A stretch of 64,000 nt of DNA from positions 139,809 through 203,808 of the forward strand of contig JAHJTE010000002.1 of assembly GCA_018830005.1 (NCBI GenBank). Direction: 5' to 3'. Each line of letters begins with the position of its first letter. The first letter of the stretch is position 1. The position numbers and the translations under genes are program-made. The notes under the pieces are model-generated. The model was not told the DNA's origin. It worked only from the letters and a program-made list of their open reading frames with translations, and made no database searches. The stretch comes from Candidatus Omnitrophota bacterium (GTDB lineage: Bacteria; Omnitrophota; Gorgyraeia; JAHJTE01). This document shows, one piece after another, positions 36,846 through 64,000 of the stretch.

Positions 36846-36849
36846 AATA

Positions 36850-46044: not shown

Positions 46045-46045
46045 T

Positions 46046-46074
46046 TATAGAGTATAGCATATTTTACCTCTATA
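46046..46074. promoter_or_regulatory. Inverted repeat TATAGAG-N15-CTCTATA upstream of the putative TA operon (candidate operator/promoter)
   Basis: Seen directly in sequence; overlaps -10-like TATA-rich sequence. Confidence 0.4.
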
Positions 46075-46380: not shown

Positions 46381-46419
46381 TTACAAGTGAGGTGCTCTAC
46401 CAACTGAGCTACGCCAGCA
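46381..46419. repeat. attR: displaced 5' half of tRNA-Thr (39-bp direct repeat, pseudo-tRNA fragment)
   Basis: Identical to 38137..38175. The flanking sequence is not tRNA-like on the element side. Confidence 0.85.
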
Positions 46420-46425
46420 TTTAAA

Positions 46426-48321: not shown

Positions 48322-48459
48322 AATAATTATTCTTTACCAATTGGAAGCTCTCTCAAAAATAGACTCCCCGAGAAACTTCACTGCTTACGTAAAACCAGGT
48401 AATAATAGCAAGGACGAGAGAAACTGCCTTAAGCCACAAATTATTGTTTATCCAGCTTT

Positions 48460-49224: not shown

Positions 49225-49231
49225 AATCTGA

Positions 49232-50125
49232 CTAATTTAAAATTTTTGAATTCAAGATAGAATCACTCAAGCGCGCAACCTGCGCCATTTCTCTCACATC
49301 GTGCACCCGCACTATGTGTGCACCAGCACTTATTGCTAAGGCAACTGAAGCAGCTGTGCCAAAAATACGCTCTGTCTCGGCAACGTCTAGCACCTTGCCG
49401 ATAAATGATTTACGGGACGTGCCAATAAGAATAGGTCTTTTTAAAACTCTAAATTCTCCTAAGCAATTTAAGATCTCTAAATTCTGCTGGGTTGTCTTTG
49501 CAAAACCAATTCCCGGATCAATAATAAGACGCTTAAATCCTAGGCCTGCCTCTTGAGCACACTCAATAGCTTTCTTTAAATATCTTATAATATCGGGAAT
49601 TAATGACCTATATTTTGTAAATCTCTGCATGTCATTAGGAGTTCCTCTTATATGCATCAGGACTAAACTTGCAGCTTTCTTTGCACAAATCTTGGCTATT
49701 CTTTTATTGTAATCCGGATTTGCCCCCATGATATTATTTATAATTACAGCTCCAGAGTCAAGTGCAGCTTCTGCAACCTCACTTTTGTATGTATCTACGG
49801 ATACTGGAATTTTCAAAGATGCGCTGATCCTTTTTACCACCGGAACAATTCTTGCCAACTCTTCCTTAACTGATACTGGCCTTGCTCCTGGACGCGTTGA
49901 TTCTGCGCCAATATCAATTATATCTGCGCCATCATTAACCATTTTCCTGGCAAGCCGCAAGGCTCTATCAATTACCAAAGAACGTTTAAGTCCAGATTTA
50001 AACAAACCATCCTGGCTAAAGGAATCCCTAGTTAGATTGATAATGCCCATCACCAGGGTGCGCGAGCCAAGCGCTAGCTTAAATTTCCCAGCCGGCAGAG
50101 AAAAATGTCTTCTTGCAACTGACAT
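49232..50125 (-). CDS. folP: Dihydropteroate synthase
   Basis: Pterin-binding TIM-barrel motifs (GIINLTRDSFSQDG, GADIIDIG). Confidence 0.85.
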   Translation of the reverse strand: MSVARRHFSLPAGKFKLALGSRTLVMGIINLTRDSFSQDGLFKSGLKRSLVIDRALRLARKMVNDGADIIDIGAESTRPGARPVSVKEELARIVPVVKRISASLKIPVSVDTYKSEVAEAALDSGAVIINNIMGANPDYNKRIAKICAKKAASLVLMHIRGTPNDMQRFTKYRSLIPDIIRYLKKAIECAQEAGLGFKRLIIDPGIGFAKTTQQNLEILNCLGEFRVLKRPILIGTSRKSFIGKVLDVAETERIFGTAASVALAISAGAHIVRVHDVREMAQVARLSDSILNSKILN

Positions 50126-52054: not shown

Positions 52055-52096
52055 AACTGCCTCAAATTAATAATTATATACCATTAAGAATAAAAA

Positions 52097-53092
52097 TCAA
52101 TACTTTCTTGTATATAGCCTTAGTCTGTCTTTGTCTTTTCTGACTGAAAGACTCTTTGGTAAATCCACAATTGAGCCTTCTATTCTATTAAGAAGCAAAT
52201 CCTCAATCTCGCGCCAATGCCGATAATCAAACTTACGAGTTGTGCCTAGAATTCTCTCTATGCATAAACGCAGTACCATTCTCTGCATAGAGATATGTAA
52301 TTTAGATAACTTTTTTAAATCCAAAGAAAGTCTCTTTCCTCTGTTAGAAATAAGAACCCGCTTCATCTGTCTTCTGGCAACATCAGTTAGATATTCATAA
52401 TCAAAAGAGATAACCTCAGAAAGATTTGCCAAAGACAAACGAGTACTTTTATTAAAATCAGATTCCAAAAACGGAATAAGTCTATTGCGAATTCTATTTC
52501 TAAAGAATTTAGGGTCTAGATTAGAGGCATCAAGGCAGGCCTTAACTTTTATACGCTTAAGATAAGAATCTATATCCTTCCTTAAAATCTCAATTAACGG
52601 CCTGACAAAGAACAATTCCCCAATCAATCTAACAGGACGGATTGCCCCCAGCCCATAAAGTCCGCTACCGCGGATAATGCGCATCAGCACCGTCTCTGCC
52701 TGATCATCTCTATTATGACCCAGGGCAATCTTATTAAGAGAATATTTCCTAGCAATATCTCTGAAAAATTTATGACGCGTATTACGGCTAACCTCCTCCA
52801 AAGAACCTTTTTTCCTAAAAGAGACGACATTAACACTTTTACAATAACAGGGAATATTTAATTTTTTTGCGATTTGTTTTACAAATTCCATATCGCGCTC
52901 AGCCTCACTCCTGCGCAACATATGATTTAGATGGGCAATATACAAAGTTATTTTGAGTTCTTTTTTTAAAGAATTCAATACGTAAATAAGAGCAACAGAA
53001 TCCGGACCGCCCGATACCCCAACCAGGACCTTATCCTGCTTTTTAAACATTTTAAATCTCTTTATTGTTGTCCTGACTTTATTTAACATCAT
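52097..53092 (-). CDS. tilS: tRNA(Ile)-lysidine synthetase
   Basis: PP-loop SGGPDS (VLVGVSGGPDSVAL); 331 aa. Confidence 0.85.
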   Translation of the reverse strand: MMLNKVRTTIKRFKMFKKQDKVLVGVSGGPDSVALIYVLNSLKKELKITLYIAHLNHMLRRSEAERDMEFVKQIAKKLNIPCYCKSVNVVSFRKKGSLEEVSRNTRHKFFRDIARKYSLNKIALGHNRDDQAETVLMRIIRGSGLYGLGAIRPVRLIGELFFVRPLIEILRKDIDSYLKRIKVKACLDASNLDPKFFRNRIRNRLIPFLESDFNKSTRLSLANLSEVISFDYEYLTDVARRQMKRVLISNRGKRLSLDLKKLSKLHISMQRMVLRLCIERILGTTRKFDYRHWREIEDLLLNRIEGSIVDLPKSLSVRKDKDRLRLYTRKY

Positions 53093-53987
53093 ATCTTAAG
53101 AAATTATAACCTTTGATTATACTATCACAAATCATCTGGACTAAATTGGAGAATTCTCCCATATCGCCTCTGCCCAAAGCAAAGTAGTATTTATAACGAT
53201 CTTCTATCTTTATAATCGCAGGTGGATAACCCTTGGATAATAACTGCGTAATAAGAATCAACCTTCCCACCCTTCCATTACCATCAAAAAAAGGATGGAT
53301 ACTTTCAAATTCGTAATGGTCACTTGCTACCTTACCAATAACATCCTTGCCATATTTATTGACCTTGGACACAAACTTTTTCATCCTCACAGGAACCATT
53401 TGCGCGGATGGAAGCGCTTTTTCTGTATTAATAAGATTAACAAATCCTGTTCTGTATTTTCCGGGAAGTTTATCGTTAAAATTATACATAACTATTGAAT
53501 GAAGCTTTAATATGTAGTCTTCATTAATCTTAAAGCTTGGCTTTATTGCATCCAGCAGAAAATTTAAAGCGTTATTATGATTTACTGCCTCTAAGACCTC
53601 AAAAAGCTCTTTTCCCCTTACCTTTCCTCCCTTAATCGCGGTTTCTGTCTCTTTAAGGCTCATGCGACTTCCCTCAATTGCATTGGAATGATAGGTCATC
53701 TCCAGAAAAAACCTTTCCTTCAAGGCCTTATTATTCCTTAGAATTTTTATAGGCTGGCTTAAATCATGCTTTAATTTTACAACCAACTCCCTTAAATCAA
53801 TGTGTTCCTTAAATAATTCATCGATTCTTCGGGATTGGCCAGGATGTGGGTTAATACCCTTATCCAGCCAGCGATAAACTGTCTTATAGCTGACTTCAAC
53901 AAGCTTAGCCAATTGAGACCGAGACATCCTGGTCTCTTCTAAGATTCGCCTTAATTTCTGCCTATCTTCAATAATAACCTTTTTCAT
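53079..53987 (-). CDS. fic: Fic-family protein (AMPylation/Fido domain) with N-terminal HTH
   Basis: Canonical Fic motif HPFFDGNGRVGR; N-terminal HTH (MSRSQLAKLVEVSYKTVYRWL). Confidence 0.85.
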   Translation of the reverse strand: MKKVIIEDRQKLRRILEETRMSRSQLAKLVEVSYKTVYRWLDKGINPHPGQSRRIDELFKEHIDLRELVVKLKHDLSQPIKILRNNKALKERFFLEMTYHSNAIEGSRMSLKETETAIKGGKVRGKELFEVLEAVNHNNALNFLLDAIKPSFKINEDYILKLHSIVMYNFNDKLPGKYRTGFVNLINTEKALPSAQMVPVRMKKFVSKVNKYGKDVIGKVASDHYEFESIHPFFDGNGRVGRLILITQLLSKGYPPAIIKIEDRYKYYFALGRGDMGEFSNLVQMICDSIIKGYNFLRYDVK

Positions 53988-54000
53988 CTTTATTTAAAAT

Positions 54001-54026
54001 AATAATAGGACATATGTCCTATTATT
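54001..54026. promoter_or_regulatory. Perfect 26-bp palindrome AATAATAGGACATATGTCCTATTATT upstream of fic (candidate operator), with a related half-site at 54045..54060
   Basis: Seen directly; lies 14 bp upstream of the fic start codon. Confidence 0.6.
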
Positions 54027-54073
54027 ATACCTAACAAAATTATACCATATGTCCTAATGGAATACAAGCCCTG

Positions 54074-54150
54074 TTTTTTATTTTGGTGGCGGGGGAGAGA
54101 TTTAAACTCTCGGCCAATCGGGTATGAGCCGACTGCTCTATCAGGCTGAG
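54074..54150 (-). tRNA. tRNA with anticodon CAT (elongator Met or Ile2/lysidine type), CCA encoded; non-canonical A19:U56
   Basis: Acceptor GGCGGGG/CCCCGCC, D-stem GCTC/GAGC with D-loop AGCCTGATA, anticodon stem GTCGG/CCGAT with loop CUCAUAC, T-stem GAGAG/CTCTC with loop TTTAAAT. 77 nt. Confidence 0.75.
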
Positions 54151-54174
54151 CTACCCCGCCATTGTTGGCTATAT

Positions 54175-54993
54175 TTACTTCTTCCGGTATGCGCTCAAGA
54201 AGGAATCGCAGTATATATGTTTATTGAGCAGTAGATCAGAGGTTATTACTGCATCCATGAGTTCCTTATCTAAAGGATCAACGATAGCTGCATCCAGGCC
54301 GTAACCAATTGCCATAGTTAGAAAAACCCTGTTTATAATATTCCTCTGGCAGCTACCCTGGCTAACATTACTTAAACCCACAACTGTCTTGGGAGCAGGA
54401 TCGGAAATCACCTTAAATTCATGCAAAACCTCTAAAATCATTTTAAGCTGGGGTTGAGCAACATTGACCGGTAAAACTATTGGATCTAGATATATGTTAT
54501 TAATATTAAAATCTTTCTCTTGTGCAAAGGCTAGTATCTGTGCTGCCAATTCTAAACGCCTGTCCTTATCTTGCGGTACTCCTTTTTTGTCCATTGTAAG
54601 GGCAATTAAAGAGGCATTGTACTTCTTGGCCATGTTTACATAAATTTCAAGACGCTCTGGGTCTGCGCTTGTGGAATTAATAATCGCCTTACCCTTTATG
54701 AGCTCAAGACCTGCCTGAATAACATTTGGCTTAGTACTATCAATGGCAAGCGGCAAATTAGAGCCCTTCTGAATAGCGCTCACTAACCACTTCATATCAC
54801 TAACCGGATCCTTGGATAACGGTCCGCAGTTAACATCAAGGGCATTAGCGCCTTCTGCCTCTTGCTGTTTAGCCAAATTAATAATAGCCTGCTCATCCTT
54901 TTTCGAAAGTGCCTCTTGCACGTTTTTATACATTCCGTTGATTAATTCACCAATTATAAACATAGCCCTATTTCTCCATAAGTTTGTCAACAA
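54175..54993 (-). CDS. acsE: Methyltetrahydrofolate:corrinoid/iron-sulfur protein methyltransferase (MeTr)
   Basis: Pterin-binding domain matching the Moorella AcsE pattern (IIGELINGM..., DPAPKTVVGLSNVSQG, YCDSFL). Confidence 0.8.
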   Translation of the reverse strand: MLTNLWRNRAMFIIGELINGMYKNVQEALSKKDEQAIINLAKQQEAEGANALDVNCGPLSKDPVSDMKWLVSAIQKGSNLPLAIDSTKPNVIQAGLELIKGKAIINSTSADPERLEIYVNMAKKYNASLIALTMDKKGVPQDKDRRLELAAQILAFAQEKDFNINNIYLDPIVLPVNVAQPQLKMILEVLHEFKVISDPAPKTVVGLSNVSQGSCQRNIINRVFLTMAIGYGLDAAIVDPLDKELMDAVITSDLLLNKHIYCDSFLSAYRKK

Positions 54994-55933
54994 ATTCTTG
55001 AACTGATTTAACTGCCTGAGGATGGCGCATAACCAAAAGGTCTGCTCCAGCCTGTAAAAAAGTAGAGGCAGTCAATGCCTCCCAGAGCAGGCCGCGTTCT
55101 GTTTGAGATCCCCATTCAGGAACCTCATCGCTGGTTGCCTTTGCCTCTTTTGCCCTCCAGGCCTCCTGACCAACTAAACAAACAAAAGGCATGGCAAGCA
55201 TTGTATCGCCGGCTAAAGCAGCTAATCTTGCACGCTCCATAATCGAATAAGCATATTCTAAGCCATATCCAAGGGCGCCTACAGTTGGATTAATTACAAT
55301 ACGCTCAGCCGGGAATCCCATATCCGAAATCAAGATATTAAGCTGTTTAGCAATATTGATATCAATGGGTGATTGGGCAATAATGCTGTGACCGTCAGCC
55401 AAAAGCGAAACAACTAAGGTCTTATAATTATCCTGGACTGCCTCGCCAAATAATAACCGCTCTCCCTTTGTAGCCTCAGAGATCTTTGGCAAGACCTCGT
55501 TATCTTTAACCTCATCGTTACAACCTAAGATAATTAATGGTAAGTCCACGGTCTTTAATAAATCCTGAACTAATTTTACAATGCTATCAGCTGGTTTGTT
55601 TCCATTATCAGGATGAATGCCAGCTAAACGCAAGGCCAAGCCCTTAGCCTGAAACTTTTCTTTGCAGACCTTAGCCCATTCTAGTGTGTTTTTCAGGATA
55701 CCTGCATCATACTGGGCCTTTAAACTATCTGGCCAGTCTGGTTCAATATCCCAGATCTCAAAAACCAGCTGGGGCTGATGCGGCATCTTTGTCTCCTGAT
55801 GCAGAAAGGACAGGCCGGTTTCGCCTCCCACTGTAATCGTAGAACCCCGGCTGCCTCCTTCTTGTTTTGTGGCTCCGATAGTAACCGTATTAATGCTGCT
55901 TGACCAAGTTTCTTTAATTAGCTCTAAAGCCAT
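54968..55933 (-). CDS. acsD: Corrinoid iron-sulfur protein small subunit (CFeSP delta)
   Basis: 321 aa TIM-barrel subunit located between cooC and acsE, as in acetogen acs clusters. Confidence 0.7.
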   Translation of the reverse strand: MALELIKETWSSSINTVTIGATKQEGGSRGSTITVGGETGLSFLHQETKMPHQPQLVFEIWDIEPDWPDSLKAQYDAGILKNTLEWAKVCKEKFQAKGLALRLAGIHPDNGNKPADSIVKLVQDLLKTVDLPLIILGCNDEVKDNEVLPKISEATKGERLLFGEAVQDNYKTLVVSLLADGHSIIAQSPIDINIAKQLNILISDMGFPAERIVINPTVGALGYGLEYAYSIMERARLAALAGDTMLAMPFVCLVGQEAWRAKEAKATSDEVPEWGSQTERGLLWEALTASTFLQAGADLLVMRHPQAVKSVQEFVDKLMEK

Positions 55934-56672
55934 GATCTCTCTTAAACGCCTCCATTTTTTTTAAAAGCCTTGATTCCTTACTAAGCTTAAAAACAGATTC
56001 ACCTTTAATACTTAAATCAAGCACTTCATCATCAAAGGGTAATTGATAAATCTTATCAAAATGAACTTGAGTCAGCTCCTCAGACAAAACTAGGTTATCC
56101 CTTGCCCTGTTAATTAAAAGAAATGTCTTATCAAACTTAAATTCCAACTCATCAGCCAATTTTTTAATCCTGGCAGCTGAATGCATGCCAACTACTGTTG
56201 CATCACTTACTAAAATAAAATAATCAGCTGCCCTTGTAGTTCGGCGGGATAAATGTTCCATGCCTGCCTCATTATCAATAACGCAGAAATTATACTGATT
56301 TATAATTCTTCCAATTGTATCCCTGAGGAGATTATTAGCATAGCAGTAACACCCGGGCCCCTCAGGTCTTCCCATGCTCAATAAATCAAAACCGCTATTT
56401 TCAACAAGCGAATGTTCGATCTCTAGTTCCAGGAAATCCTTTTTGGTCATACCGGGGGGTACTGATTGAGGATTTTTAGCTACAGAATCAATCAATTCGC
56501 CTATAGAAGTGCCTGCAGTTATACCTAATACTTCACCCAGATTACTGTTCGGATCAGCATCAATTGCCAAGGCTGAACCTAATTTATCGGCAATAATTAT
56601 TTTTAATATAACTGCCGCTATAGTAGTTTTTCCTGTGCCGCCTTTTCCAGCAACAGCAATGGTAAACGCCAT
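55914..56672 (-). CDS. cooC: CooC/AcsF-type P-loop ATPase (Ni-insertion maturation factor)
   Basis: MAFTIAVAGKGGTGKTT deviant Walker A of the MinD/CooC family. Confidence 0.75.
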   Translation of the reverse strand: MAFTIAVAGKGGTGKTTIAAVILKIIIADKLGSALAIDADPNSNLGEVLGITAGTSIGELIDSVAKNPQSVPPGMTKKDFLELEIEHSLVENSGFDLLSMGRPEGPGCYCYANNLLRDTIGRIINQYNFCVIDNEAGMEHLSRRTTRAADYFILVSDATVVGMHSAARIKKLADELEFKFDKTFLLINRARDNLVLSEELTQVHFDKIYQLPFDDEVLDLSIKGESVFKLSKESRLLKKMEAFKRDHGFRAN

Positions 56673-56692
56673 AAGCCCTTTATCAATCTTGT

Positions 56693-58627
56693 TTATAATT
56701 TAAAACTGGGAAACTTACTCCTATCTGTATGAGGAAAAAACAAAGCTGCCATATATTCATCCATATATGTATCTTCAACAGAAAGTTCAAAATAGGTTAC
56801 TTTTCTGGCAAGTTCCTCAGCCTGATTCAAGGCCTGGCTCGATAGTAAAATCGCCCTTGCCCCGGCTAAAGAACTGTTTCCTACAAATTCAAATCTTTCT
56901 AGTTTAAGGTCTGGCAACAAACCTATGGTAATTGCCTTTTTTATATCCAGATACGTACCAAAACCTCCTGCAATAAATATTTTCTTTATTGCGCTCATTT
57001 CAAAGCCCATATGTCTGACTAAGGTGCTTGAAGCAGCAAATATGGCTGCCTTTGAGCGCTTTAAATTATCTATATCTCCTTCCGTAATTATAATATCATT
57101 ACCTGTAGCAGATTTTTTCTTGTCCACAACGATAAAAGACTTCCCTGTCTGGGTTGACTTTATTAAACCTGGGGCCTTTTTTTCGATTATACTGCCTGAA
57201 CTATCAATGATGCCGCTAGATAGCATTTCTGCAAGTAAATCAATGTAGCCTGAGCCGCAGATACCGAGAGGCTTACCGCCAAGTATGGTAGAACATTTCA
57301 CATTATGAGTCTTTTTGTTGATGGATACTCTCTCGATAGCACCTTTGGTTGCCCTCATACCGCAAGATACACCACTACCTTCAAATGCCGGACCAGCGCT
57401 GGCTGCACAAGCAACCAACCAATCTTTATTACCTAAAACAATCTCGCCGTTAGTGCCAACATCAATCAAAAGTGACAGATCTTTACTTTTATCTATGCCG
57501 CAAGCTAAAATCCCAGAAACTATATCTCCACCCACATAGCTTGCGATCGAAGGTACAGTGGCTAATAAGCCACGCGGGTTTATCTTTATGCCTGCCTCAG
57601 AAGCCCTAATTACAGGCACAAAATTTGCAGTAGGAATATAAGGCTCCCGCCTTATGTATGTGGGATCAATCCTTAAAAGCAAATGCATCATTGTTGGATT
57701 ACCAGCACAGAGACAACAGGTAACGTTGTTTAAATCAATATCATTTTCAAAAGTTAGCTGGCGTATCATATCATTCATTACATCAATGACAGCATGATGA
57801 AGCCTTTCTAGGCCTTCAGACTTTTGGGCAAAGATTATGCGCGAAATTATATCTGTACCAAAACTGGCCTGCCGGTTATAAGAGGCCTTTGTGCCTAAGA
57901 TCTTTTTTGTGTTAAGATCAACTAATTGGCCGGATACAGTTGTTGTGCCGATGTCAAAAGCAAAACCATAGTTTTTATCAGAAGTGTCTCCGGGTTGGAT
58001 GAGAACCACCTCTGTCGTGCCTCCCCGCTTACCCAGTGTTACTGTAACATGCCAGTTTGCCGAACGTAATATCATACCTAATCTTCTGATATTGGTAAGG
58101 CCTGCCTGCATAATCTTTAAATCTTCTCGTTTTCTTATTTCTCTGTACAACCTCTCTAAATCACTTACCTTATCTTGCAGATCTGGTGGCTCTAACTTAA
58201 GCGATAATTTTGTGGCCAAAGGTGAATGAGCAAAAATATCCTCTCTAACAAATAAATGGGCCTTGTCAATATCCTCGGCCTTGCTGTAAACCCCTTTTAA
58301 TCGCTGGGCATAGGCCTCTTCTTCGGAAACCAACTCAGATTCAAGGCGAGACTCAACAGGTATCTCTACCGTAATATCACTTTTAATGACTGAAAGGCAT
58401 GCCAGGCAATAACCTTTTTGCCTTTCTTCTTTTTTAATCCTTCCGGAAGCTGCAGACTGAACATTGCCTTTTTTTACGATAACCTTACAGCGGCCACAAA
58501 CGCCTTCTCCACCGCAGCTTGAATGCAGATAGACACCTGCAGAAACCGCAGCATCAAGGATAGTCTTACCCTTGGGCACGTTTATCGTTATTTTATCTGG
58601 CAAAAATCTAACCTTAACTTCTTCCAT
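56693..58627 (-). CDS. Reductive activator of corrinoid Fe-S protein (RACo): 2Fe-2S ferredoxin plus ASKHA ATPase
   Basis: N-terminal plant-type ferredoxin Cys motif (SSCGGEGVCGRCKV ... CLAC) and a C-terminal ASKHA-fold domain; 644 aa. Confidence 0.75.
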   Translation of the reverse strand: MEEVKVRFLPDKITINVPKGKTILDAAVSAGVYLHSSCGGEGVCGRCKVIVKKGNVQSAASGRIKKEERQKGYCLACLSVIKSDITVEIPVESRLESELVSEEEAYAQRLKGVYSKAEDIDKAHLFVREDIFAHSPLATKLSLKLEPPDLQDKVSDLERLYREIRKREDLKIMQAGLTNIRRLGMILRSANWHVTVTLGKRGGTTEVVLIQPGDTSDKNYGFAFDIGTTTVSGQLVDLNTKKILGTKASYNRQASFGTDIISRIIFAQKSEGLERLHHAVIDVMNDMIRQLTFENDIDLNNVTCCLCAGNPTMMHLLLRIDPTYIRREPYIPTANFVPVIRASEAGIKINPRGLLATVPSIASYVGGDIVSGILACGIDKSKDLSLLIDVGTNGEIVLGNKDWLVACAASAGPAFEGSGVSCGMRATKGAIERVSINKKTHNVKCSTILGGKPLGICGSGYIDLLAEMLSSGIIDSSGSIIEKKAPGLIKSTQTGKSFIVVDKKKSATGNDIIITEGDIDNLKRSKAAIFAASSTLVRHMGFEMSAIKKIFIAGGFGTYLDIKKAITIGLLPDLKLERFEFVGNSSLAGARAILLSSQALNQAEELARKVTYFELSVEDTYMDEYMAALFFPHTDRSKFPSFKL

Positions 58628-58643
58628 TTCCTTGTGCCTATAC

Positions 58644-59981
58644 TTAGTTATTAAAATTCTTCAAAAATGCGCTAATCCCGGATGCCTCTCGCGGACCAAC
58701 CATAACCTTCCAGCCGCTCTGTTCTTCTAAATCTCCGCTCATAACAGCAACATAACCGGGTATAATAACTATCTTGTGATTCACCAATTGCTCTGTAGAG
58801 GCCTTTTGCATAGACTGTGTTATTTTCTCAGGAGTAAACTTCTCCGCTGCCCAGGCAGTTAGAACTGACATGCCTTCTGTATCCACGCTTAGTATGTAAG
58901 AGGAAATCTTGCTCGATTCCACTTCTGAAAGAACTGTATAATAAGTAAGTGAAAAATTAGTAGTTACCAGTAGTGGAGACTCATTTGTTGGCGAACCAAT
59001 CGGATATATCTTTGGTTCAACCTGCAAAGGTCTCTGCGGATCAGAATAAATATTCTGGCGCAACGTAAGCAATGAAAGTATTGCAGGCACTGATGCCTTT
59101 TCCAATAAAATGATTGATGCATACTTAGCCATAAGCGCACCAGCATTCAAAACATCAAACACAGACTCTCCGGCTTTAATAACGCTAATTGTAGGAAAAC
59201 CAAAAGGGCGAAATGTCTTCTTTAAAGCAAGACGGCGGATTTGAGTAAGGCCTTCAATCTGGGCTGCTAGGCTATTATTTTCCACATGCAATACTAAATC
59301 CTCACAAGTCCTCTGCTTGAGCTTTTTAACAAGTTCATGGAGATCGTCAAGGCTAGAAGCAGAGACAACTAAAGGTGCTTTAGCATTATTTGCAATCTCA
59401 GCGAATTGAGCATGATTATTTTCATCTGCCCCAAAAATTAGCGGTTGTTCATCCTTACAAATCTCAATTGCAGCTTTGATAATTTCAGGATTCTTGGAAA
59501 TAAATACAAGATTTAGCTTACTATTTTCCTTAACAAACTTCACGCAATTTGAAAAGGTCTGTATATCTCCTGAAGTATCCTTTATTGCAATTAAATCCAG
59601 CTTTAACTCCTGGCCTACCCTTTCAAACTCTAGACCTTTCAAAAATTTAACGAATTCAGACAGCTCTGCTTGGGGAGTATTATCTTCTATTATGAGTCCA
59701 ATCCCCGTGGGATGATGAAACTTTTCTTCATGGCGGAACAGCACAGTCTCATTACCAACACTTAAGGCATCCTCTTCCTTGCCGATAGTAATTAATTTTA
59801 CTGGCGGTTGAGAAGACGACTCCAGGGCAGCCTTAGCCTCGTCAGTCAAAAAGGGACACTTGGTGATGTCTGTGGTTTTCTTAGCCAGCGCCAATGCAAA
59901 AGCAAGGCAAGTGGGAAAATTACACTTCCTGCAATTTGTCTTTGGTAGTAACTTATAAATCTCTAATCCTGCTAACCCCAT
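58644..59981 (-). CDS. acsC: Corrinoid iron-sulfur protein large subunit (CFeSP gamma)
   Basis: N-terminal [4Fe-4S] motif CRKCNFPTCLAFA...CPF; 445 aa. Confidence 0.8.
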   Translation of the reverse strand: MGLAGLEIYKLLPKTNCRKCNFPTCLAFALALAKKTTDITKCPFLTDEAKAALESSSQPPVKLITIGKEEDALSVGNETVLFRHEEKFHHPTGIGLIIEDNTPQAELSEFVKFLKGLEFERVGQELKLDLIAIKDTSGDIQTFSNCVKFVKENSKLNLVFISKNPEIIKAAIEICKDEQPLIFGADENNHAQFAEIANNAKAPLVVSASSLDDLHELVKKLKQRTCEDLVLHVENNSLAAQIEGLTQIRRLALKKTFRPFGFPTISVIKAGESVFDVLNAGALMAKYASIILLEKASVPAILSLLTLRQNIYSDPQRPLQVEPKIYPIGSPTNESPLLVTTNFSLTYYTVLSEVESSKISSYILSVDTEGMSVLTAWAAEKFTPEKITQSMQKASTEQLVNHKIVIIPGYVAVMSGDLEEQSGWKVMVGPREASGISAFLKNFNN

Positions 59982-60084
59982 AACGCAGACTCCTTTTTTA
60001 GAATTTACTTATTTTAAGAAGGGGAAAAACGATTCTCACTTGGGAATATAAAAAGAAATTTATCAAAAGATTCAGGAAAGTATT

Positions 60085-60411
60085 TCAGCTAAAAACAACC
60101 AAAAGAAGCGTAAGGCAAATAAAGAAACAAAGAAAATAAAAATCATTGAAATAAAGGAAGTCGTTAATCCTCTCGATTAGATTACGGTAACCCAAAGAAG
60201 CATCAACGTCAACGCTGCTTTTGCGAATATGCGTTAAGACACGCGGCGTGATCTTAACCTGCTTCAGCTGATCTTCCTTAAATCGCAAATATACTCCACC
60301 GATCTTATAAGCCGGAATTGTCCCTTGTTCAGACAAATCAACAACCGCCTTCTCAGAGATACCAAAATAGGCTGCCGCTTCACGCACAGTTAATAATTTT
60401 TCTTTCGCCAT
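60085..60411 (-). CDS. Excisionase-family HTH DNA-binding protein with C-terminal transmembrane anchor
   Basis: LTVREAAAYFGISEKAVVDLSEQGTIPAYKIGGVYLRFKEDQL matches the excisionase-type HTH (TIGR01764-like); C-terminal hydrophobic tail FYFLCFFICLTLLLVVFS. Confidence 0.6.
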   Translation of the reverse strand: MAKEKLLTVREAAAYFGISEKAVVDLSEQGTIPAYKIGGVYLRFKEDQLKQVKITPRVLTHIRKSSVDVDASLGYRNLIERINDFLYFNDFYFLCFFICLTLLLVVFS

Positions 60412-60429
60412 CGTTAAATTTTCCTGATC

Positions 60430-60939
60430 TTACTGCTTTAGTTTCCCTGATGCTATCCATTTATCAATCTTCTTTCTTTCAAAGCGCCAATTATCTCCAT
60501 CCTTGAAAGCAGGCACCTTTCCAGAATTGGCCCACTCCATAACAGAATTCAAATCAATCTCTAGGTATCTTGCCAAATCATCTGGTCCGAATATGTCTTC
60601 TAACATGCGGCATTCGCCTTCAAAGATTGCCCCTTCCATAACAATAAGTTTGGCTGTTTTGATCTCGCCTTTGACCTCTGCTGTTGACTCTAAAACTAAT
60701 CTCTCCTTAGAGACAATATCTCCTTTTACCCTGCCAGCAACAGCAATGTTTTCTCCGATAATATGGGCATCTACATCTGCCTTTGGCCCGATTTGGAGAT
60801 AGCCTTTTGTCTCCAGCGTGCCTTCAAACTTACCGTTTATACGTAAATTAACTGGATCTTTGAATGTTAATGTCCCACTCATTGCTGCATCTACATCAAG
60901 AAACTTTTCTGGTTCCTCCCTTCTTGATCTCATGGCCAT
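60430..60939 (-). CDS. Bactofilin-domain protein fused to a C-terminal excisionase-family HTH
   Basis: Bactofilin beta-helix repeats (LQIGPKADVDAHIIGENIAVAGRVKGDIVSKERLVLESTAEVKGEI) followed by LARYLEIDLNSVMEWANSGKVPAFKDGDNWRFERKKIDKWI. Confidence 0.65.
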   Translation of the reverse strand: MAMRSRREEPEKFLDVDAAMSGTLTFKDPVNLRINGKFEGTLETKGYLQIGPKADVDAHIIGENIAVAGRVKGDIVSKERLVLESTAEVKGEIKTAKLIVMEGAIFEGECRMLEDIFGPDDLARYLEIDLNSVMEWANSGKVPAFKDGDNWRFERKKIDKWIASGKLKQ

Positions 60940-61000
60940 GTATCAGCCCTCCTTTAATGAGACAATAATTTAGACTCGTTAAATTATATCCTCGCTTTAT

Positions 61001-61441
61001 CTATTTATTTTGATGCTTACTAAGATGAACCTCAACGCCTCTTATTGCCCATAAGACAATAAGAACTAATAATGTAGTAACAAGTGCCGCCAGATAAAAA
61101 CCACAGCCTACGGCTATGCCAATAGCAGCCACAATCCACAAGGTCGCAGCAGTGGTAAGACCATGCACAGTATCTCCGCCGCGAATAATTGCACCTGCGC
61201 CTAAAAAGCCAATTCCAGTGACAACGCCGGCTACAATGCGCGAAGGATCTACATTAGCTATATCTTTATATATATCAAAAACATACGCGGATGTCAACAT
61301 TATCAAACTAGCACCCACACAAACAAGAATATGAGTCCTAAGTCCTGCACTCCTTTTTTTGATCTCACGTTCAAGACCAATGAACCCCCCCAAAACTGCA
61401 GCCAAAATAAGACGCAATATTACCTGCTCTGTCAAAAGCAT
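61001..61441 (-). CDS. mgtC: MgtC/SapB family membrane protein
   Basis: LILAAVLGGFIGLEREIKKRSAGLRTHILVCVGASL MgtC signature. Confidence 0.8.
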   Translation of the reverse strand: MLLTEQVILRLILAAVLGGFIGLEREIKKRSAGLRTHILVCVGASLIMLTSAYVFDIYKDIANVDPSRIVAGVVTGIGFLGAGAIIRGGDTVHGLTTAATLWIVAAIGIAVGCGFYLAALVTTLLVLIVLWAIRGVEVHLSKHQNK

Positions 61442-61476
61442 GATTACCTCTCTTGTTTTATTAAAGATAAGCTCAT

Positions 61477-62451
61477 TTACTTCCTCAGATGATATGCCAA
61501 CCCTGCAATCATTGCCGCATTATCCTGACAAAACTCTAAATCAGAAAAACTCACTCTGATCTTTTCCTTAAGAGAAGATTGTAAGATATTTTCTCGCAGT
61601 AGAGAGTTTGCTGCTACGCCTCCTCCAATTATTAAATCTTTCACATTTCTAGCCTTACAGGCCGCAATTGTTTTATCTACCAAGACATTAACTACTGCCT
61701 CCTGAAACGCTGCGGCAATCTCTGCCTTAAGAGAAAATGGCAACTTGCAAGAAGGGTTTTTTCTTTGCCAGTCCTGTACGAAATAAAGAACTGCTGTTTT
61801 GATTCCACTGAAACTAAAATCAAAACTATTAGGTAGCCGGGCGCAATTAAAATGCAATCTTGGCCTTGAAACAGCCTTAGCTAACTTATCGATTTCAGGA
61901 CCGCCCGGAAAAGAAAGTCCTAGAATTTTAGCAACCTTATCAAATGCCTCACCCGCAGCATCATCGCGAGTTTGACCTAACAATTGAATCTTCCTAAAGC
62001 CCTTACAATAAAATATACGCGTATGACCGCCTGAAACCACCAAGGCCACTAAGGGAAATTTAGGTTTTTTTCTATTAAGCCTTGCATCCAAAAAAGGAGA
62101 ATAAAGATGTGCCTGAGTATGGTCTACTTCTATTAAATCCTTTCCTAGAGAAAAACTTAAGGCACGCGCAAAACTTAAACCAACCAGTAATGCCCCTGGT
62201 AGACCCGGCTGCTTTGTTACGGCAATAAGACCTATATCTTCAAGGTCTACTTTTGCCTCTTTTATAGCTTCCTGAGAAACAAATGCTATTGCCTCTAGAT
62301 GTCCCCTTGCTGCAATCTCAGGTACTACGCCTCCATACTTCTTATGTAAAAAAAGTGTAGAGGATATAACATTGGATAAAACCTTCTTGCCATCTCTGAC
62401 AACAGAAGCCGCAGTCTCATCACAGGAGGTCTCAATACCTAAGACATTCAT
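61477..62451 (-). CDS. tsaD: tRNA N6-adenosine threonylcarbamoyltransferase
   Basis: MNVLGIETSCDETAASVV and GGVAAN Kae1/TsaD motifs. Confidence 0.9.
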   Translation of the reverse strand: MNVLGIETSCDETAASVVRDGKKVLSNVISSTLFLHKKYGGVVPEIAARGHLEAIAFVSQEAIKEAKVDLEDIGLIAVTKQPGLPGALLVGLSFARALSFSLGKDLIEVDHTQAHLYSPFLDARLNRKKPKFPLVALVVSGGHTRIFYCKGFRKIQLLGQTRDDAAGEAFDKVAKILGLSFPGGPEIDKLAKAVSRPRLHFNCARLPNSFDFSFSGIKTAVLYFVQDWQRKNPSCKLPFSLKAEIAAAFQEAVVNVLVDKTIAACKARNVKDLIIGGGVAANSLLRENILQSSLKEKIRVSFSDLEFCQDNAAMIAGLAYHLRK

Positions 62452-62457
62452 ATCGAC

Positions 62458-63309
62458 TTATTCCACTAACTCAGAAAGCAAGACAAATTCTATTTGCTGT
62501 TTTCCAGAATCTAATTGAGATATTTTATCATCCAGAACCCTTAAAGTAAGTTTACGATCATGACCAATGCCGACTGCCTTACCTTTTTTCTTAGCCAATC
62601 TAATCAATTTTTCAAATTGATTAGAAATATATTCATAATCTTGCTCATTGTCAAGAAAGATATCACGTGTAATATAGCCTACGCCTAAATCCTTTGCGAT
62701 TTTTCTACTTACAGGGCGAGAAATAACCAAGCTGTCTAGAAAAAACAGATTTCTTCTGGCTAATTCTTCAAATATTATTCTCATAAGCGGCTCAGAGGCA
62801 GTCGCCTTAGATCCCATGTGATTTGAGACGCCAACAACCATAGGCAGGGACTTTAAATCTTTATTGAGAATCTTAAATATCTCATCTTTGCCCATTGTAG
62901 TAAGTATAGTATCGGGTTCAAGTTCGGCACCTTCTGGAAGGGAACGAGGCTCAAGCGGTAAATGCAAGATTGCCTCACGCATATGTCCTTTAGCAAAACT
63001 TGCGATTTCCTTACTATAGATAAGAGAAGGCAATATTGACAAGGTCAATGGGACATCTAGCTTTTCTAAATAGGGAATATTTCTCCTGTTATAGCCCCAA
63101 TCATCAATCACCAAGGCCACTTTAGCCAAGACCTCTTTTTCTATCTCGATTTCAGGATAAGACTCCTCAACTAACTCTAAAGGCTCAATCGGTATAGCCT
63201 CTTTCTTTTGCTTAACTAGCAAAGAGATTATTATGCCAAACTGAACCAGGACAATACAGAGAAGAACTATTACTAATGGATTTGAGTTGCCTGTTGACTT
63301 TTTAGCCAA
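62458..63309 (-). CDS. Divergent polysaccharide deacetylase (YibQ/DUF610 family)
   Basis: N-terminal TM; VALVIDDWGYN ... GVSNHMGS motifs. Confidence 0.7.
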   Translation of the reverse strand: MAKKSTGNSNPLVIVLLCIVLVQFGIIISLLVKQKKEAIPIEPLELVEESYPEIEIEKEVLAKVALVIDDWGYNRRNIPYLEKLDVPLTLSILPSLIYSKEIASFAKGHMREAILHLPLEPRSLPEGAELEPDTILTTMGKDEIFKILNKDLKSLPMVVGVSNHMGSKATASEPLMRIIFEELARRNLFFLDSLVISRPVSRKIAKDLGVGYITRDIFLDNEQDYEYISNQFEKLIRLAKKKGKAVGIGHDRKLTLRVLDDKISQLDSGKQQIEFVLLSELVE

Positions 63310-64000
63310 TTTTTTGAACCTTATTATAGACCTTTATTGCCTTTAAAAGATCTAACGCCCTTAATAGCTGTGAATCTCTCAAATAAAAATCATCATCTTT
63401 GTTAATATTCTCTTCCTTGCTGTCTTTTTCTGGTTTCTTTTTCTCATTCTCTAATTTCTTAAAGACGTCTTCTGTATCCTCTTCGGCCGCTGCCTCAGAA
63501 ATAAACTGAGCCTTAACTTCAATATCTGGCTCGATTCCAACATTGTGTATTGAACGCTCAGATGGCGTAAAATACTTACTTGTCGTAAGCCGCAAGGCAG
63601 AACCATCATTCATAGGCAACACGGTCTGTACAGAACCCTTTCCAAAACTTTTTGTTCCCAATATCAGGGCACGATTATAATCCTGTAAGGCACCCGCAAG
63701 AATTTCTGAACCTGATGCGCTTCCTTCATTAATCAAAACCACCATTGGTATATCCAAGAGTGGATCTTTAACTCGTGATTTAAATTCAAATCTGGATGCA
63801 GGGTTTCTGCCTTGAGTTGAAACGACTAATGTATCATTGGGAAGAAAGGAAGAGGTAATATCAATAGCGACATTTAAAAGTCCACCCGGATTAAATCTCA
63901 CATCTAAAATCAGAGCCTGCATACCCTCATCCTGCAGGCGCTTCAGGGCAGCCTTAAATTCCTTTGCGCTATTTTCTCGAAATTCTATTAAACGAATATA
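63302..64000 (-). CDS. ctpA: C-terminal processing peptidase (S41 family), partial; N-terminus beyond the window end
   Basis: LINEGSASGSEILAGALQDYNRALILGTKSFGKGSVQ catalytic region; the frame is open to the window edge. Confidence 0.75.
   Translation of the reverse strand, partial: YIRLIEFRENSAKEFKAALKRLQDEGMQALILDVRFNPGGLLNVAIDITSSFLPNDTLVVSTQGRNPASRFEFKSRVKDPLLDIPMVVLINEGSASGSEILAGALQDYNRALILGTKSFGKGSVQTVLPMNDGSALRLTTSKYFTPSERSIHNVGIEPDIEVKAQFISEAAAEEDTEDVFKKLENEKKKPEKDSKEENINKDDDFYLRDSQLLRALDLLKAIKVYNKVQKIG

What the first reader, a model, noticed from the sequence alone, without database searches (positions are those of the whole stretch)
60085..60939. Tandem excisionase-type HTH genes: one fused to bactofilin, one to a membrane anchor
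Gene 60430..60939 joins a bactofilin polymerising beta-helix domain to a C-terminal excisionase-family HTH. The next gene carries the same HTH type at its N-terminus and a C-terminal tail-anchor TM helix. A DNA-binding bactofilin plus a membrane-anchored paralogous DNA binder suggests a cytoskeleton-membrane-DNA tethering or positioning device. Bactofilin is known to recruit ParB via PadC in Myxococcus, but a direct bactofilin-HTH fusion is unusual.
Basis: partly seen in the sequence, partly recalled or inferred. Interest (0 to 1): 0.6.

Follow-up and report, generated by a model that had tools for sequence, protein, structure and literature searches.

The report
Bactofilin–HTH fusion with membrane-anchored HTH partner
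Two adjacent genes conserved across the uncultured phylum Omnitrophota encode a filament-forming bactofilin with a small winged-helix domain at its end and a membrane-anchored protein with the same kind of domain; together they probably form a membrane-attached scaffold, but whether they bind DNA is doubtful.

Summary
Both genes lie on the minus strand.

- **Gene A** (60430..60939, 169 aa) has a Bactofilin domain (85 bits) followed by an HTH_17 domain (40 bits).
- **Gene B** (60085..60411, 108 aa) has an HTH_17 domain (40.5 bits), a variable linker, an invariant DFxYFNDFY motif and a C-terminal hydrophobic tail of about 17 aa.

The pair is not a one-off:
- A has about 1,700 relatives (90% identity clusters) and is present in at least 455 species-level genomes. 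Nearly every named source is Omnitrophota or PVC.
- B follows A on the same strand in 79 of 80 loci, and in four further lineages whose flanking genes differ.

At the positions that contact DNA in BldC, the closest solved fold, both families carry acidic or neutral residues. Arg30 becomes E/D in 120/120 A sequences and D/E in 115/120 B sequences. Helix 2 has a net charge of −2, against +2 in BldC, Pukovnik Xis and a genuine excisionase elsewhere in this window.

My best reading (about 0.4) is a membrane-associated bactofilin scaffold. In it, the winged-helix modules act as docking domains, and B serves as a dedicated membrane receptor, comparable to RodZ or PbpC. A DNA tether remains a live rival (about 0.3).

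This is a new variant of a known kind. No paper in the searched library describes it.

The parts
60430..60939 (-). Gene A: bactofilin with a C-terminal winged HTH (169 aa)
   Evidence: ORF; Bactofilin 85.1 bits, HTH_17 40.3 bits; AF2 model; 6rib TM 0.86; BldC rmsd about 1.5 A
60901..60939 (-). A residues 1-13: disordered basic N-terminal tail (MAMRSRREEPEKF; family consensus MA[FL][RK]D[RK]KK), a possible membrane-targeting sequence
   Evidence: pLDDT <50 for residues 1-10; family composition; mean charge +1.6; published MTS consensus MFSKKKK
60604..60900 (-). A residues 14-112: bactofilin beta-helix. It includes F106, which aligns with the polymerisation residues BacA F130 and TtBac F105
   Evidence: F106: F87/L25/I5/M3 of 120; invariant in 10 divergent fusions
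60445..60585 (-). A residues 119-165: MerR/excisionase-like winged HTH (HTH_17). Helix 2 is acidic (DLNSVMEWANSG)
60948..60954 (-). Shine-Dalgarno AAGGAGG, about 8 nt upstream of the gene A ATG
   Evidence: Read directly from the sequence
60412..60429 (-). 18-nt A-B spacer containing AGGAAA. There is no terminator, so the genes are probably co-transcribed
60085..60411 (-). Gene B: tail-anchored winged-HTH protein (108 aa)
60259..60396 (-). B residues 6-51: winged HTH (HTH_17/TIGR01764). Helix 2 is acidic (SEKAVVDLSEQG). The wing PAYK.GGVYLRFK is invariant or nearly so
60181..60258 (-). B residues 52-77: variable, partly disordered linker (29-47 aa in the family, counted from the end of LRFK to the start of FNDFY)
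60088..60180 (-). B residues 78-108: juxtamembrane helix with the invariant DFxYFNDFY motif, then the hydrophobic C-terminal anchor
   Evidence: (pLDDT 94)
61001..61441 (-). MgtC-family membrane protein (146 aa, membrane domain only). It is a frequent upstream neighbour of A-B and a possible third component
   Evidence: MgtC 143 bits; position -1 in 63 loci; also kept in the otherwise different context of L081; absent in L084, L087 and L090

Best explanation
A and B form a two-component, membrane-associated cytoskeletal module specific to Omnitrophota.

[quoted passage not shown] Each subunit displays one winged-helix domain on a short linker.
- B is a tail-anchored membrane protein made from the same transcript. 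Its cytoplasmic winged-helix domain sits on a flexible linker of roughly 30-45 residues.
- In this clade the winged-helix domains have lost the basic DNA-reading surface. I propose they act as protein-docking modules.
- B would be the dedicated membrane receptor or organiser of the A polymer. Docking would occur through the A winged-helix domain or the A beta-helix. This resembles RodZ using an HTH to hold MreB, and the way bitopic membrane clients such as PbpC, encoded beside bactofilin genes, dock onto bactofilins.

Shown here: the domain content, predicted folds, conservation, gene linkage, the conserved polymerisation residue, and the loss of BldC-type DNA-contact residues.

Inferred: polymerisation, membrane location, direct A-B contact, and the cellular process served (cell shape, division or envelope organisation in very small cells).
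For: - The domains and folds are confirmed.
- F106 aligns with BacA F130 and TtBac F105. Mutation of these residues to Arg blocks polymerisation (for BacA F130R; 6ria is the F105R mutant). F106 is hydrophobic in 120/120 relatives and invariant in 10 divergent fusions.
- The N-terminus of A resembles the published MTS.
- A-B linkage holds in 79/80 loci, plus four lineages with unrelated flanks.
- A-B spacers are mostly 1-30 nt and sometimes overlap. This fits a stoichiometric complex.
- B has only 0-3 residues beyond its anchor, so it can do nothing outside the membrane except anchor.
- DNA-contact positions:
  - BldC Arg30 (R30A abolishes binding) becomes E/D in 120/120 A sequences and D/E in 115/120 B sequences.
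  - BldC Lys33 becomes N/S/T in most A sequences and E in 112/120 B sequences.
  - Helix 2 has a net charge of about -2 to -3, against +2 in BldC, Pukovnik Xis and the window's own excisionase.
  - Whole-domain net charge is -1 (A) and 0 (B), against +4 to +6 in the comparators.
- The MerR-like fold is known to serve protein binding. CbpM bound to the CbpA J-domain appears among the fold matches.
- The HTH of A is the most conserved part of the protein (69.6% median identity against 65% for the beta-helix). A as a whole is more conserved than TsaD in the same genomes (61.5% against 53.1%), although the loci were chosen by similarity to A.
- Bactofilins binding an HTH protein and holding it at the membrane has a precedent in B. 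subtilis BacR.
Against: - No direct test of A-B contact was possible.
- B keeps invariant basic residues near the wing (R10, K36, R43, K45), which could still hold a DNA backbone.
- In one divergent lineage (L090) the B partner is strongly basic (helix 2 +5, domain +6). The ancestral function may therefore have been DNA binding.
- Helix 2 has a like charge in A and B, not an opposite one. This fits a shared third ligand better than helix-2-to-helix-2 contact.
- A BldC-style head-to-tail salt bridge (A E127 with B R10) looks attractive in the main clade. L090 contradicts it, having D at the R10 position.
- Rate covariation did not single out A-B. The partial r was 0.28, lower than for either protein with MgtC.
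- If the N-terminal MTS of A works, a separate anchor is not strictly needed.
Confidence: 0.4

Rival explanations
1. This is the first reader's model: a DNA-cytoskeleton-membrane tether. Both winged-helix domains bind chromosomal DNA. The A polymer presents an array of DNA-binding domains, and B pins DNA to the membrane. Together they attach or position the nucleoid, or a specific locus, at the envelope. Functionally this resembles RacA-DivIVA, Noc, or BacNOP-PadC-ParB.
For: - Both domains pass the HTH_17 threshold. Their best structural matches are DNA-bound BldC, Xis, RdfS, RacA and MerR proteins.
- W136 in A is invariant and matches BldC W31, which contacts DNA.
- B keeps K21 (= BldC K26), R43 (= R48), K36 and K45.
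- In the L090 lineage the B partner is strongly basic, and helix 2 of A reads DPKTLNQW, close to BldC DPKTVTRW.
- Like charge on the two helix-2 surfaces fits a common ligand.
- A second Omnitrophota bactofilin-HTH family sits beside a ParA/MipZ-like ATPase. ParA-type ATPases are widely known as positioning systems that use the nucleoid (my own knowledge).
Against: - The residues equivalent to BldC Arg30 and Lys33 are acidic or neutral in nearly all main-clade sequences. Helix 2 is net negative and the domains are not basic. Four DNA-binding comparators, including a genuine excisionase in the same window, are +4 to +6.
- No repeated or palindromic DNA motif was found around the operon.
- No ParB, parS or other DNA-handling gene is linked in the main clade.
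Confidence: 0.3
2. A regulatory switch in the manner of B. subtilis BacR-BacEF. One or both HTH domains act as transcription factors. Their access to DNA is controlled by sequestration in the polymer (A) or at the membrane (B), for example with release of B by proteolysis.
For: - BacR is an HTH protein encoded with bactofilins. It is held at the membrane by them and released to the nucleoid on bactofilin depletion or vancomycin stress.
- HTH_17/MerR-like domains are commonly regulators.
Against: - The charge and contact-residue argument is the same as for the DNA tether.
- No DUF4004 match was found.
- No promoter-like site or operator-like repeat lies upstream of A. A lies 61 nt after mgtC in a long co-directional gene string.
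- B has no sensing domain.
- Very high sequence conservation across the phylum is more typical of a structural component than of a regulator.
Confidence: 0.1
3. The module serves the neighbouring MgtC-family membrane protein. B would bind it through its transmembrane tail, as the small peptide MgtR binds MgtC in Salmonella (my own knowledge). A would cluster or regulate it.
For: - The MgtC gene lies directly upstream of A in 63 of the 80 closest loci, and also in L081 where all other flanks differ.
- Residual distance correlations of MgtC with A (0.44) and with B (0.51) exceed the A-B value.
Against: - MgtC is absent next to A-B in L084, L087 and L090.
- The covariation test does not remove shared phylogeny.
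- The 80 loci are closely syntenic over more than 10 genes, so adjacency there says little.
Confidence: 0.1
4. The HTH genes are excisionase, mobile-element or phage-defence components that happen to be fused or adjacent to a bactofilin.
For: - The source annotations read 'excisionase family DNA binding protein'.
- There are weak sub-threshold hits to MADS MAD1 (48 bits against a cut-off of 80; PADLOC mad1 31 bits).
Against: - The chromosomal position is stable and syntenic among housekeeping genes (gatAB, tsaD, acetyl-CoA synthase genes) in at least 80 species.
- No integrase is linked.
- The genuine integrase-excisionase pair of this window lies elsewhere (38198..40767).
- The MAD1 scores are below cut-off and reflect only the shared HTH.
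Confidence: 0.02

Closest known systems
Canonical bactofilins (C. crescentus BacA, T. thermophilus TtBac; PF04519)
   Same: - The beta-helix domain aligns over its full length and matches 6rib/2n3d structurally.
- The polymerisation Phe is conserved.
- There is a short basic N-terminal tail resembling the MTS.
   Different: - The usual disordered C-terminal tail is replaced by a folded winged-HTH domain, 5-25 residues after the beta-helix.
- The N-terminal motif is MA[FL][RK].. instead of MFSKKKK.
- The family is confined to Omnitrophota/PVC as far as source names show.
Bactofilin plus an adjacent bitopic membrane client (BacA-PbpC in Caulobacter; BacA with the M23 endopeptidase of Hyphomonas)
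   Same: A bactofilin gene lies next to a gene for a single-pass membrane protein whose cytoplasmic part could dock on the polymer (PbpC; M23 endopeptidase paper listed, not read).
   Different: - PbpC and the M23 endopeptidase carry periplasmic enzymatic domains (M23 case: from the paper's title and my own knowledge).
- PbpC binds through a short N-terminal peptide.
- B has a folded cytoplasmic winged HTH, a C-terminal anchor and essentially nothing outside the membrane.
RodZ-MreB (my own knowledge: van den Ent et al. 2010)
   Same: A membrane-anchored protein whose N-terminal cytoplasmic HTH binds a cytoskeletal polymer rather than DNA. This is the functional analogy I favour for B.
   Different: - RodZ has an Xre-type HTH, a periplasmic domain, and partners actin-like MreB.
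- B has an HTH_17 domain, no periplasmic domain, and is paired with a bactofilin.
- No RodZ-type family hit was found.
BacR (YhbD, DUF4004) with BacE/BacF in Bacillus subtilis (PMC13649987)
   Same: An HTH protein is encoded with bactofilins. It physically binds them and is held at the membrane by them.
   Different: - BacR is a separate soluble protein of about 210 aa in the DUF4004 family. It binds DNA and regulates the operon.
- Here one HTH is fused to the bactofilin and the other is membrane-anchored. Both lack a basic reading helix.
BldC, Xis and RacA: monomeric MerR-like winged-HTH DNA binders
   Same: The fold is the same, alpha1-alpha2-beta-hairpin-alpha3 (rmsd 1.1-1.7 A). Like BldC, there is no coiled-coil dimerisation helix.
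   Different: The BldC DNA-contact residues Arg30, Lys33 and Arg47 are not conserved. The surface is acidic instead of basic.
BacNOP-PadC-ParB scaffold of Myxococcus xanthus (PMC5703909, listed; content from my own knowledge)
   Same: A bactofilin scaffold linked to chromosome organisation.
   Different: The link there is indirect, through the ParB-like adaptor PadC and ParB-parS. No ParB-like domain or par genes accompany A-B.

Membership tests
Bactofilin (PF04519) | Profile match above the curated threshold | tested here: met
   85.1 bits against 27.9, residues 14-110. phmmer to 6ria gives E 5.5e-9, and to 2n3d E 3.5e-6.
Bactofilin (PF04519) | Right-handed beta-helix fold | tested here: met
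   AF2 pLDDT is about 85-96 over residues 21-110. Foldseek gives 6rib TM 0.86 and rmsd 1.7 A, and 2n3d TM 0.82. This is a prediction, not an experiment.
Bactofilin (PF04519) | Hydrophobic residue at the C-terminal polymerisation interface (BacA F130, TtBac F105) | tested here: met
   F106 aligns to both. The family composition is F87/L25/I5/M3 of 120. It is invariant F in 10 divergent fusions.
Bactofilin (PF04519) | N-terminal membrane-targeting sequence (consensus MFSKKKK) | tested here: inconclusive
   The family N-terminus is MA[FL][RK]D[RK]KK, and the window has MAMRSRRE. Distant fusions have MFKRKPKQ and MKFFPQKKR. It is similar in character, with one hydrophobic residue followed by basic ones, but not identical to the published motif.
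Bactofilin (PF04519) | Nucleotide-independent polymer formation | not testable with these tools
   This needs purified protein with EM, or in vivo imaging.
Excisionase / HTH_17 (PF12728, TIGR01764) | Profile match above threshold | tested here: met
   HTH_17 scores 40.3 (A) and 40.5 (B) against 27. TIGR01764 scores 38.1 for B, which passes, and 27.3 for A against 28.8, just below.
Excisionase / HTH_17 (PF12728, TIGR01764) | MerR-like winged-HTH fold | tested here: met
   AF2 secondary structure. BldC, Xis and RdfS match at rmsd 1.1-1.8 A.
Excisionase / HTH_17 (PF12728, TIGR01764) | Basic DNA-reading surface (equivalents of BldC K26, R30, K33, R47, R48) | tested here: not met
   The R30 equivalent is E/D in 120/120 A sequences and D/E in 115/120 B sequences. 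The K33 equivalent is N/S/T (105/120) in A and E (112/120) in B. Helix 2 is net -2.1 (A) and -2.7 (B), against +2. K26 and R48 are kept in B only.
Excisionase / HTH_17 (PF12728, TIGR01764) | Acts as a recombination directionality factor: linked to an integrase or mobile element | tested here: not met
   No integrase lies in any of the A-B neighbourhoods. The genuine integrase and Xis pair of the window lies at 38198..40767.
Excisionase / HTH_17 (PF12728, TIGR01764) | DNA binding | not testable with these tools
   This needs EMSA or fluorescence polarisation with purified domains.
Tail-anchored membrane protein (gene B) | A single hydrophobic segment at the extreme C-terminus, no N-terminal signal or transmembrane segment, and very few residues beyond it | tested here: met
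   A 15-residue uncharged run (median KD 3.5) follows FNDFY in 105/120 relatives, with 0-3 residues after it. AF2 predicts a helix at 90-107 with pLDDT 94. The N-terminus is the soluble HTH. Membrane insertion itself was not tested.
RodZ | Xre-type HTH, a transmembrane segment, a periplasmic C-terminal domain, and an MreB partner | tested here: not met
   Only HTH_17-type hits were found, there is no periplasmic domain, and the partner gene is a bactofilin. The analogy is functional only.
BacR / DUF4004 (PF13171) | DUF4004 profile match; soluble protein of about 210 aa | tested here: not met
   There is no DUF4004 hit for A or B at E <= 0.1.
MADS MAD1 (NF047737) defence HTH | Score above the equivalog cut-off, and a MADS gene neighbourhood | tested here: not met
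   48.4 and 33.6 bits against a cut-off of 80. PADLOC mad1 scores 31 bits for B only. No MADS genes are nearby.

The most novel reading that the evidence does not exclude
Omnitrophota would use a previously unrecognised kind of bactofilin system. In it, a degenerate, non-DNA-binding winged-helix domain fused to every polymer subunit is the docking site for a dedicated tail-anchored receptor with the same fold. This would be a new mode of membrane attachment and client recruitment for bactofilins. It would form a phylum-specific, probably essential, envelope or cell-division scaffold in ultra-small cells. The alternative novel reading is that the polymer itself binds the chromosome directly, which would make it the first bactofilin to do so without a ParB-like adaptor.
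Probability: 0.35. Interest if true: 0.7.

Novelty: new variant of a known kind. Interest (0 to 1): 0.55.

Why it matters
Bactofilins are widespread scaffolds, but few clients are known and how those clients dock is understood in only a few cases. Here the bactofilin carries a folded adaptor domain in cis and has an obligate membrane partner in trans. The pair is conserved more strongly than TsaD across a whole uncultured phylum.

That gives three things:
- a defined, testable bactofilin-partner pair that could be reconstituted in E. coli or in vitro;
- a candidate core cell-biology module for Omnitrophota, whose cell organisation is essentially unknown;
- a cautionary example that 'excisionase family DNA binding protein' annotations can hide winged-helix domains that have probably been re-purposed.

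If DNA binding were nevertheless shown, it would be the first bactofilin that binds DNA directly.

Tried and rejected
1. **Mobile-element or excisionase origin.** Rejected on the conserved housekeeping synteny and the absence of integrases. The real excisionase of the window is elsewhere.
2. **Defence system (MADS).** Rejected, because the scores are sub-threshold.
3. **Operator or centromere-like repeats near the operon.** Nothing beyond chance-level short repeats was found. No sigma-70-like promoter lies upstream of A and no terminator follows B.
4. **Evolutionary-rate covariation of A, B and MgtC, controlling for TsaD and the deacetylase.** All partial correlations were positive and A-B was the lowest, so the test does not discriminate.
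5. **A BldC-like head-to-tail A-B heterodimer with a charge-swapped salt bridge (A E127 with B R10).** It is consistent in the main clade but contradicted by L090, where B has D at that position. I do not rely on it.
6. **Search for a natural A+B single-chain fusion.** None appeared among the listed hits. P0292 has an N-terminal hydrophobic segment, a partial bactofilin and an HTH, but it is a single listed hit whose origin was not checked.
7. **Foldseek against afdb50, to map the architecture by organism.** The library was unavailable.
8. **Literature.** No paper in the held library mentions bactofilin together with Omnitrophota. None of the papers returned for the HTH, HTH_17 or excisionase searches concerns this fusion.
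Full report
**1. What is there**

The stretch 60085..60939 holds two co-directional ORFs on the minus strand.

Gene A (60430..60939, 169 aa):
- It is preceded by a strong Shine-Dalgarno sequence, AAGGAGG (sequence).
- It matches Pfam Bactofilin over residues 14-110 (85.1 bits, cut-off 27.9).
- It matches HTH_17 over residues 119-165 (40.3 bits, cut-off 27).

Gene B (60085..60411, 108 aa):
- It starts 18 nt after the stop codon of A.
- It matches HTH_17 over residues 6-50 (40.5 bits) and TIGR01764 'excise' (38.1 bits, cut-off 28.8).

An alignment of 20 B homologues shows four parts. These are a conserved N-terminal domain, a variable linker, an invariant DFxYFNDFY motif, and a hydrophobic C-terminus. 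In 105 of 120 homologues the stretch after the motif is a 15-residue uncharged run with median hydropathy 3.5. Only 0-3 residues follow it.

AlphaFold2 models agree with this layout:
- A is a beta-helix over residues 14-112 (block pLDDT about 85-96). A winged HTH follows (helices 119-126 and 130-139, hairpin 145-154, helix 155-163). The first 10 residues are disordered.
- B is a winged HTH at 6-51, a disordered segment at 64-75, and two helices at 78-88 and 90-107 with pLDDT about 94.

Foldseek superposes the beta-helix on Thermus bactofilin 6rib (TM 0.86, rmsd 1.7 A). It superposes both winged HTH domains on BldC, Pukovnik Xis, RdfS, RacA and MerR proteins (rmsd 1.1-1.8 A).

The two HTH domains are only 23% identical. 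"Paralogous" holds only at the level of the family.

**2. It is a conserved two-gene module of one phylum**

Gene A is widespread in Omnitrophota:
- It has 1,719 relatives at E <= 1e-3 among 90% identity clusters. All 120 listed carry both Pfam domains, and the source names say Candidatus Omnitrophota or Omnitrophica.
- A scan of one genome per GTDB species found 455 genomes with a relative. Most of the 80 retrieved are labelled Omnitrophota. The rest carry vague or pipeline-assigned labels ('bacterium', 'uncultured Planctomycetales').

Gene B is linked to it:
- In 79 of the 80 loci a B homologue follows A on the same strand. The one exception is a contig that ends 83 nt after A.
- A-B spacers are mostly 1-30 nt, and a few overlap. 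This indicates co-transcription and probably translational coupling.
- A few genomes have 100-250 nt spacers that contain hairpins.

The fusion is rare among bactofilins in general. In a library of 1.84 billion representatives at 50% identity, about two dozen clusters in the top 150 carry the full fusion. The remaining hits, of 10,523 in total, are plain bactofilins or fragments. Named members of the divergent fusion clusters are 'PVC group bacterium' or Omnitrophica.

The A-B pair survives where the flanking genes differ:

| Locus | Gene order |
|---|---|
| L081 | BatD - TPR - MgtC - A - B - PDZ protein |
| L084 | TsaD - A - B - SNase - TilS |
| L087 | SPOR protein - TPR/PDZ - A - B |
| L090 | response regulator/HATPase - A - B - chorismate-binding enzyme |

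The 80 closest loci share a long syntenic block: gatA, gatB, an S41 protease, a polysaccharide deacetylase, tsaD, mgtC, A, B, an AIRC-family gene, an FmdE-family gene, then the acetyl-CoA synthase genes. Adjacency to those genes therefore says little. The exception may be MgtC, which recurs in the otherwise different L081 context.

Against the window's proteins, across 46-49 loci, median identities are:
- A: 61.5% overall (HTH domain 69.6%, beta-helix 65%)
- TsaD: 53.1%
- B: 46.7% overall (HTH 61.2%)

The loci were selected by similarity to A, which inflates the value for A somewhat.

**3. Is A a working bactofilin?**

The alignments to TtBac and BacA place A F106 opposite TtBac F105 and BacA F130. 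BacA F130R is polymerisation-deficient. 6ria is the F105R mutant crystal form.

Position 106 is F, L, I or M in all 120 relatives. It is invariant F in ten divergent fusions.

The N-terminus reads MA[FL][RK]D[RK]KK in the family and MAMRSRRE in the window, with a mean charge of +1.6 over ten residues. Distant fusions start MFKRKPKQ, MKFFPQKKR or MRKKKQ. The published membrane-targeting consensus is MFSKKKK, and in BacA residues F2 and K4/K7 are critical. The resemblance is suggestive, not proof.

Closely related beta-helices occur with no extra domain, or with a C-terminal PilZ domain (P0273). In this sub-family the C-terminus seems to be a slot for adaptor domains.

**4. Do the winged-helix domains bind DNA?**

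The best structural match is BldC. Its DNA contacts are known:
- Lys26 and Arg30 read bases.
- Thr27, Thr29, Lys33 and Trp31 contact phosphates.
- His46, Arg47 and Arg48 in the wing enter the minor groove.
- The R30A and H46E mutations abolish binding.

Helix 2 aligns without gaps, anchored on the conserved Gly (for B; by inspection for A). The family compositions at the equivalent positions are:

| BldC residue | A family (n = 120) | B family (n = 120) |
|---|---|---|
| Arg30 | E86 / D34 | D103 / E12 |
| Lys33 | N / S / T (105 of 120) | E112 |
| Lys26 | N / S / D | K / R (kept) |
| Arg47 | W | L |
| Arg48 | K / R (kept) | R (kept) |
| Trp31 | W (119 of 120) | L |

Net charges of the window's own domains, against comparators:

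| Protein | Helix 2 | Whole HTH domain |
|---|---|---|
| Window A | −2 | −1 |
| Window B | −2 | 0 |
| BldC | +2 | +6 |
| Pukovnik Xis | +2 | +4 |
| Window excisionase (40585..40767) | +2 | +5 |

The window excisionase serves as an internal control. It is a 60-aa HTH_17 protein lying one gene away from a tyrosine integrase at a tRNA-Thr gene. The family means for the whole domain are −3.3 for A and −0.7 for B.

The acidic residue at the Arg30 position is old. It is present in 8 of 10 divergent fusions, including the 28% identical second family.

There are exceptions. In the L090 lineage, helix 2 of A reads DPKTLNQW, close to BldC. Its B partner is strongly basic (helix 2 +5, domain +6).

I conclude that canonical major-groove reading is unlikely for the window's proteins. 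DNA backbone binding through the conserved basic wing of B (R10, K36, R43, K45) cannot be excluded. The ancestral domain may well have bound DNA.

The MerR-like fold is also used for protein binding. CbpM in complex with the CbpA J-domain is among the matches.

**5. Most likely mechanism**

I commit to the following, at about 0.4.
- A polymerises on the inner face of the membrane.
- Each subunit exposes one winged-helix module. The linker is 5 residues in this clade and up to about 25 in others.
- B is made with A in roughly fixed proportion. It is a tail anchor whose only possible job is to hold its own winged-helix module near the membrane on a flexible tether.
- The two modules are docking domains that connect the polymer and the membrane. 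They may bind each other, or B may bind the beta-helix.

This resembles how RodZ uses an HTH to hold MreB (my own knowledge), and how PbpC docks on BacA. It is also consistent with bactofilins capturing the HTH protein BacR at the membrane in B. subtilis.

Steps shown here: architecture, folds, linkage, the conserved polymerisation residue, and the loss of DNA-contact residues. Steps inferred: polymerisation, membrane binding, A-B contact, and the cellular role.

Arguments against this model:
- Helix 2 carries like charge in A and B, which fits a shared third ligand better than mutual contact.
- The basic L090 variant points the other way.
- I have no direct interaction evidence.
- The rate-covariation test was uninformative.

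**6. Rivals**

- **DNA-polymer-membrane tether (about 0.3).** It is supported by the fold family, the retained wing residues, the L090 lineage and the like-charged surfaces. It is opposed by the charge and contact analysis and by the absence of par genes or DNA repeats.
- **BacR-like regulatory switch (about 0.1).**
- **MgtC-centred membrane complex (about 0.1).**
- **Mobile-element or defence origin (about 0.02).** This is excluded by synteny and sub-threshold scores.

**7. Comparison with what is known, and novelty**

A passes every bactofilin membership test that could be run. The N-terminal MTS test is inconclusive.

Both HTH domains are members of HTH_17 by sequence and by fold. They fail the tests for a functional excisionase, having no integrase link and no basic reading surface.

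B is not a RodZ, BacR or MAD1 family member.

A full-text search found no paper that mentions bactofilin together with Omnitrophota. No paper returned by the other searches concerns a bactofilin-HTH_17 fusion. The 2025 survey of 14,337 bactofilins concentrated on five other phyla.

I rate it a new variant of a known kind: a bactofilin scaffold with a fused adaptor domain and a dedicated tail-anchored partner. It is phylum-specific and uncharacterised. I score interest at 0.55. A bactofilin specialist would find the cis-fused folded domain and obligate partner notable and directly testable. However, the function is still inferred and the organisms are uncultured.

Noticed in passing
window 38102..43306 (minus strand): An integrated mobile element sits beside tRNA-Thr (38102..38174). 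It contains a tyrosine integrase (38198..39259), a STAND/AAA ATPase (39282..40487), a genuine 60-aa excisionase-type HTH_17 (40585..40767, net charge +5), a SpoVG-like gene (41864..42181) and several ORFs with no family. I used the excisionase as an internal control for a DNA-binding HTH_17.
   Followed up: partly
L089:290-5567, L094:866-4317, L095: A second bactofilin-HTH_17 family in Omnitrophota (P0419/P0420, about 28% identical to gene A) has no gene B partner. It sits in a 'cytoskeletal island' with a Volactin-type actin homologue (307 bits), a ParA/MipZ-like ATPase fused to a glycogen-binding AMPK1_CBM/CBM48 domain, and three proteins of unknown family. This may be a cargo-positioning system.
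   Followed up: partly
P0273 and P0305: P0273 is a bactofilin of the same sub-family fused to a C-terminal PilZ domain, which is associated with c-di-GMP binding. P0305 consists of three tandem HTH_17 repeats with basic reading helices.
   Followed up: no
window 54175..59981 (minus strand): A Wood-Ljungdahl (acetyl-CoA synthase) gene set lies directly downstream of gene B. It comprises CdhD (58644..59981), RACo (56693..58627), a CooC-like ATPase (55914..56672), a second CdhD-like gene (54968..55933) and a pterin-binding protein (54175..54993). Fic, TilS, FtsH, FolP, a DAC-domain protein and PdxJ follow.
   Followed up: no
window 59982..60084 compared with L049:6835-7503 and L002:7521-7940: In most relatives an AIRC-family gene (222 aa) and an FmdE-family gene (139 aa) lie between gene B and CdhD. 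Both are missing from this window, where B is followed after 103 nt by CdhD.
   Followed up: partly
window 61001..61441; L081:5318-5755: A short MgtC-family protein (membrane domain only) lies directly upstream of A in most loci, and also in a lineage where all other neighbours differ. It is absent in three other lineages. It may be a third component.
   Followed up: partly
L005:6511-6685, L021, L024, L039: A few genomes have 70-250 nt A-B spacers that contain GC-rich hairpins. These may be attenuators that set the A:B ratio.
   Followed up: no
window 1..64000: Every long ORF that is not nested inside another lies on the minus strand across the whole 64 kb, as do all five tRNA genes. This is an extreme co-orientation of genes.
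   Followed up: no
L090:5661-5960 with P0391: In this divergent lineage the B partner has a strongly basic HTH (domain +6). Helix 2 of the A protein reads DPKTLNQW, almost the BldC sequence. DNA binding may be ancestral and lost, or altered, in the main clade.
   Followed up: partly
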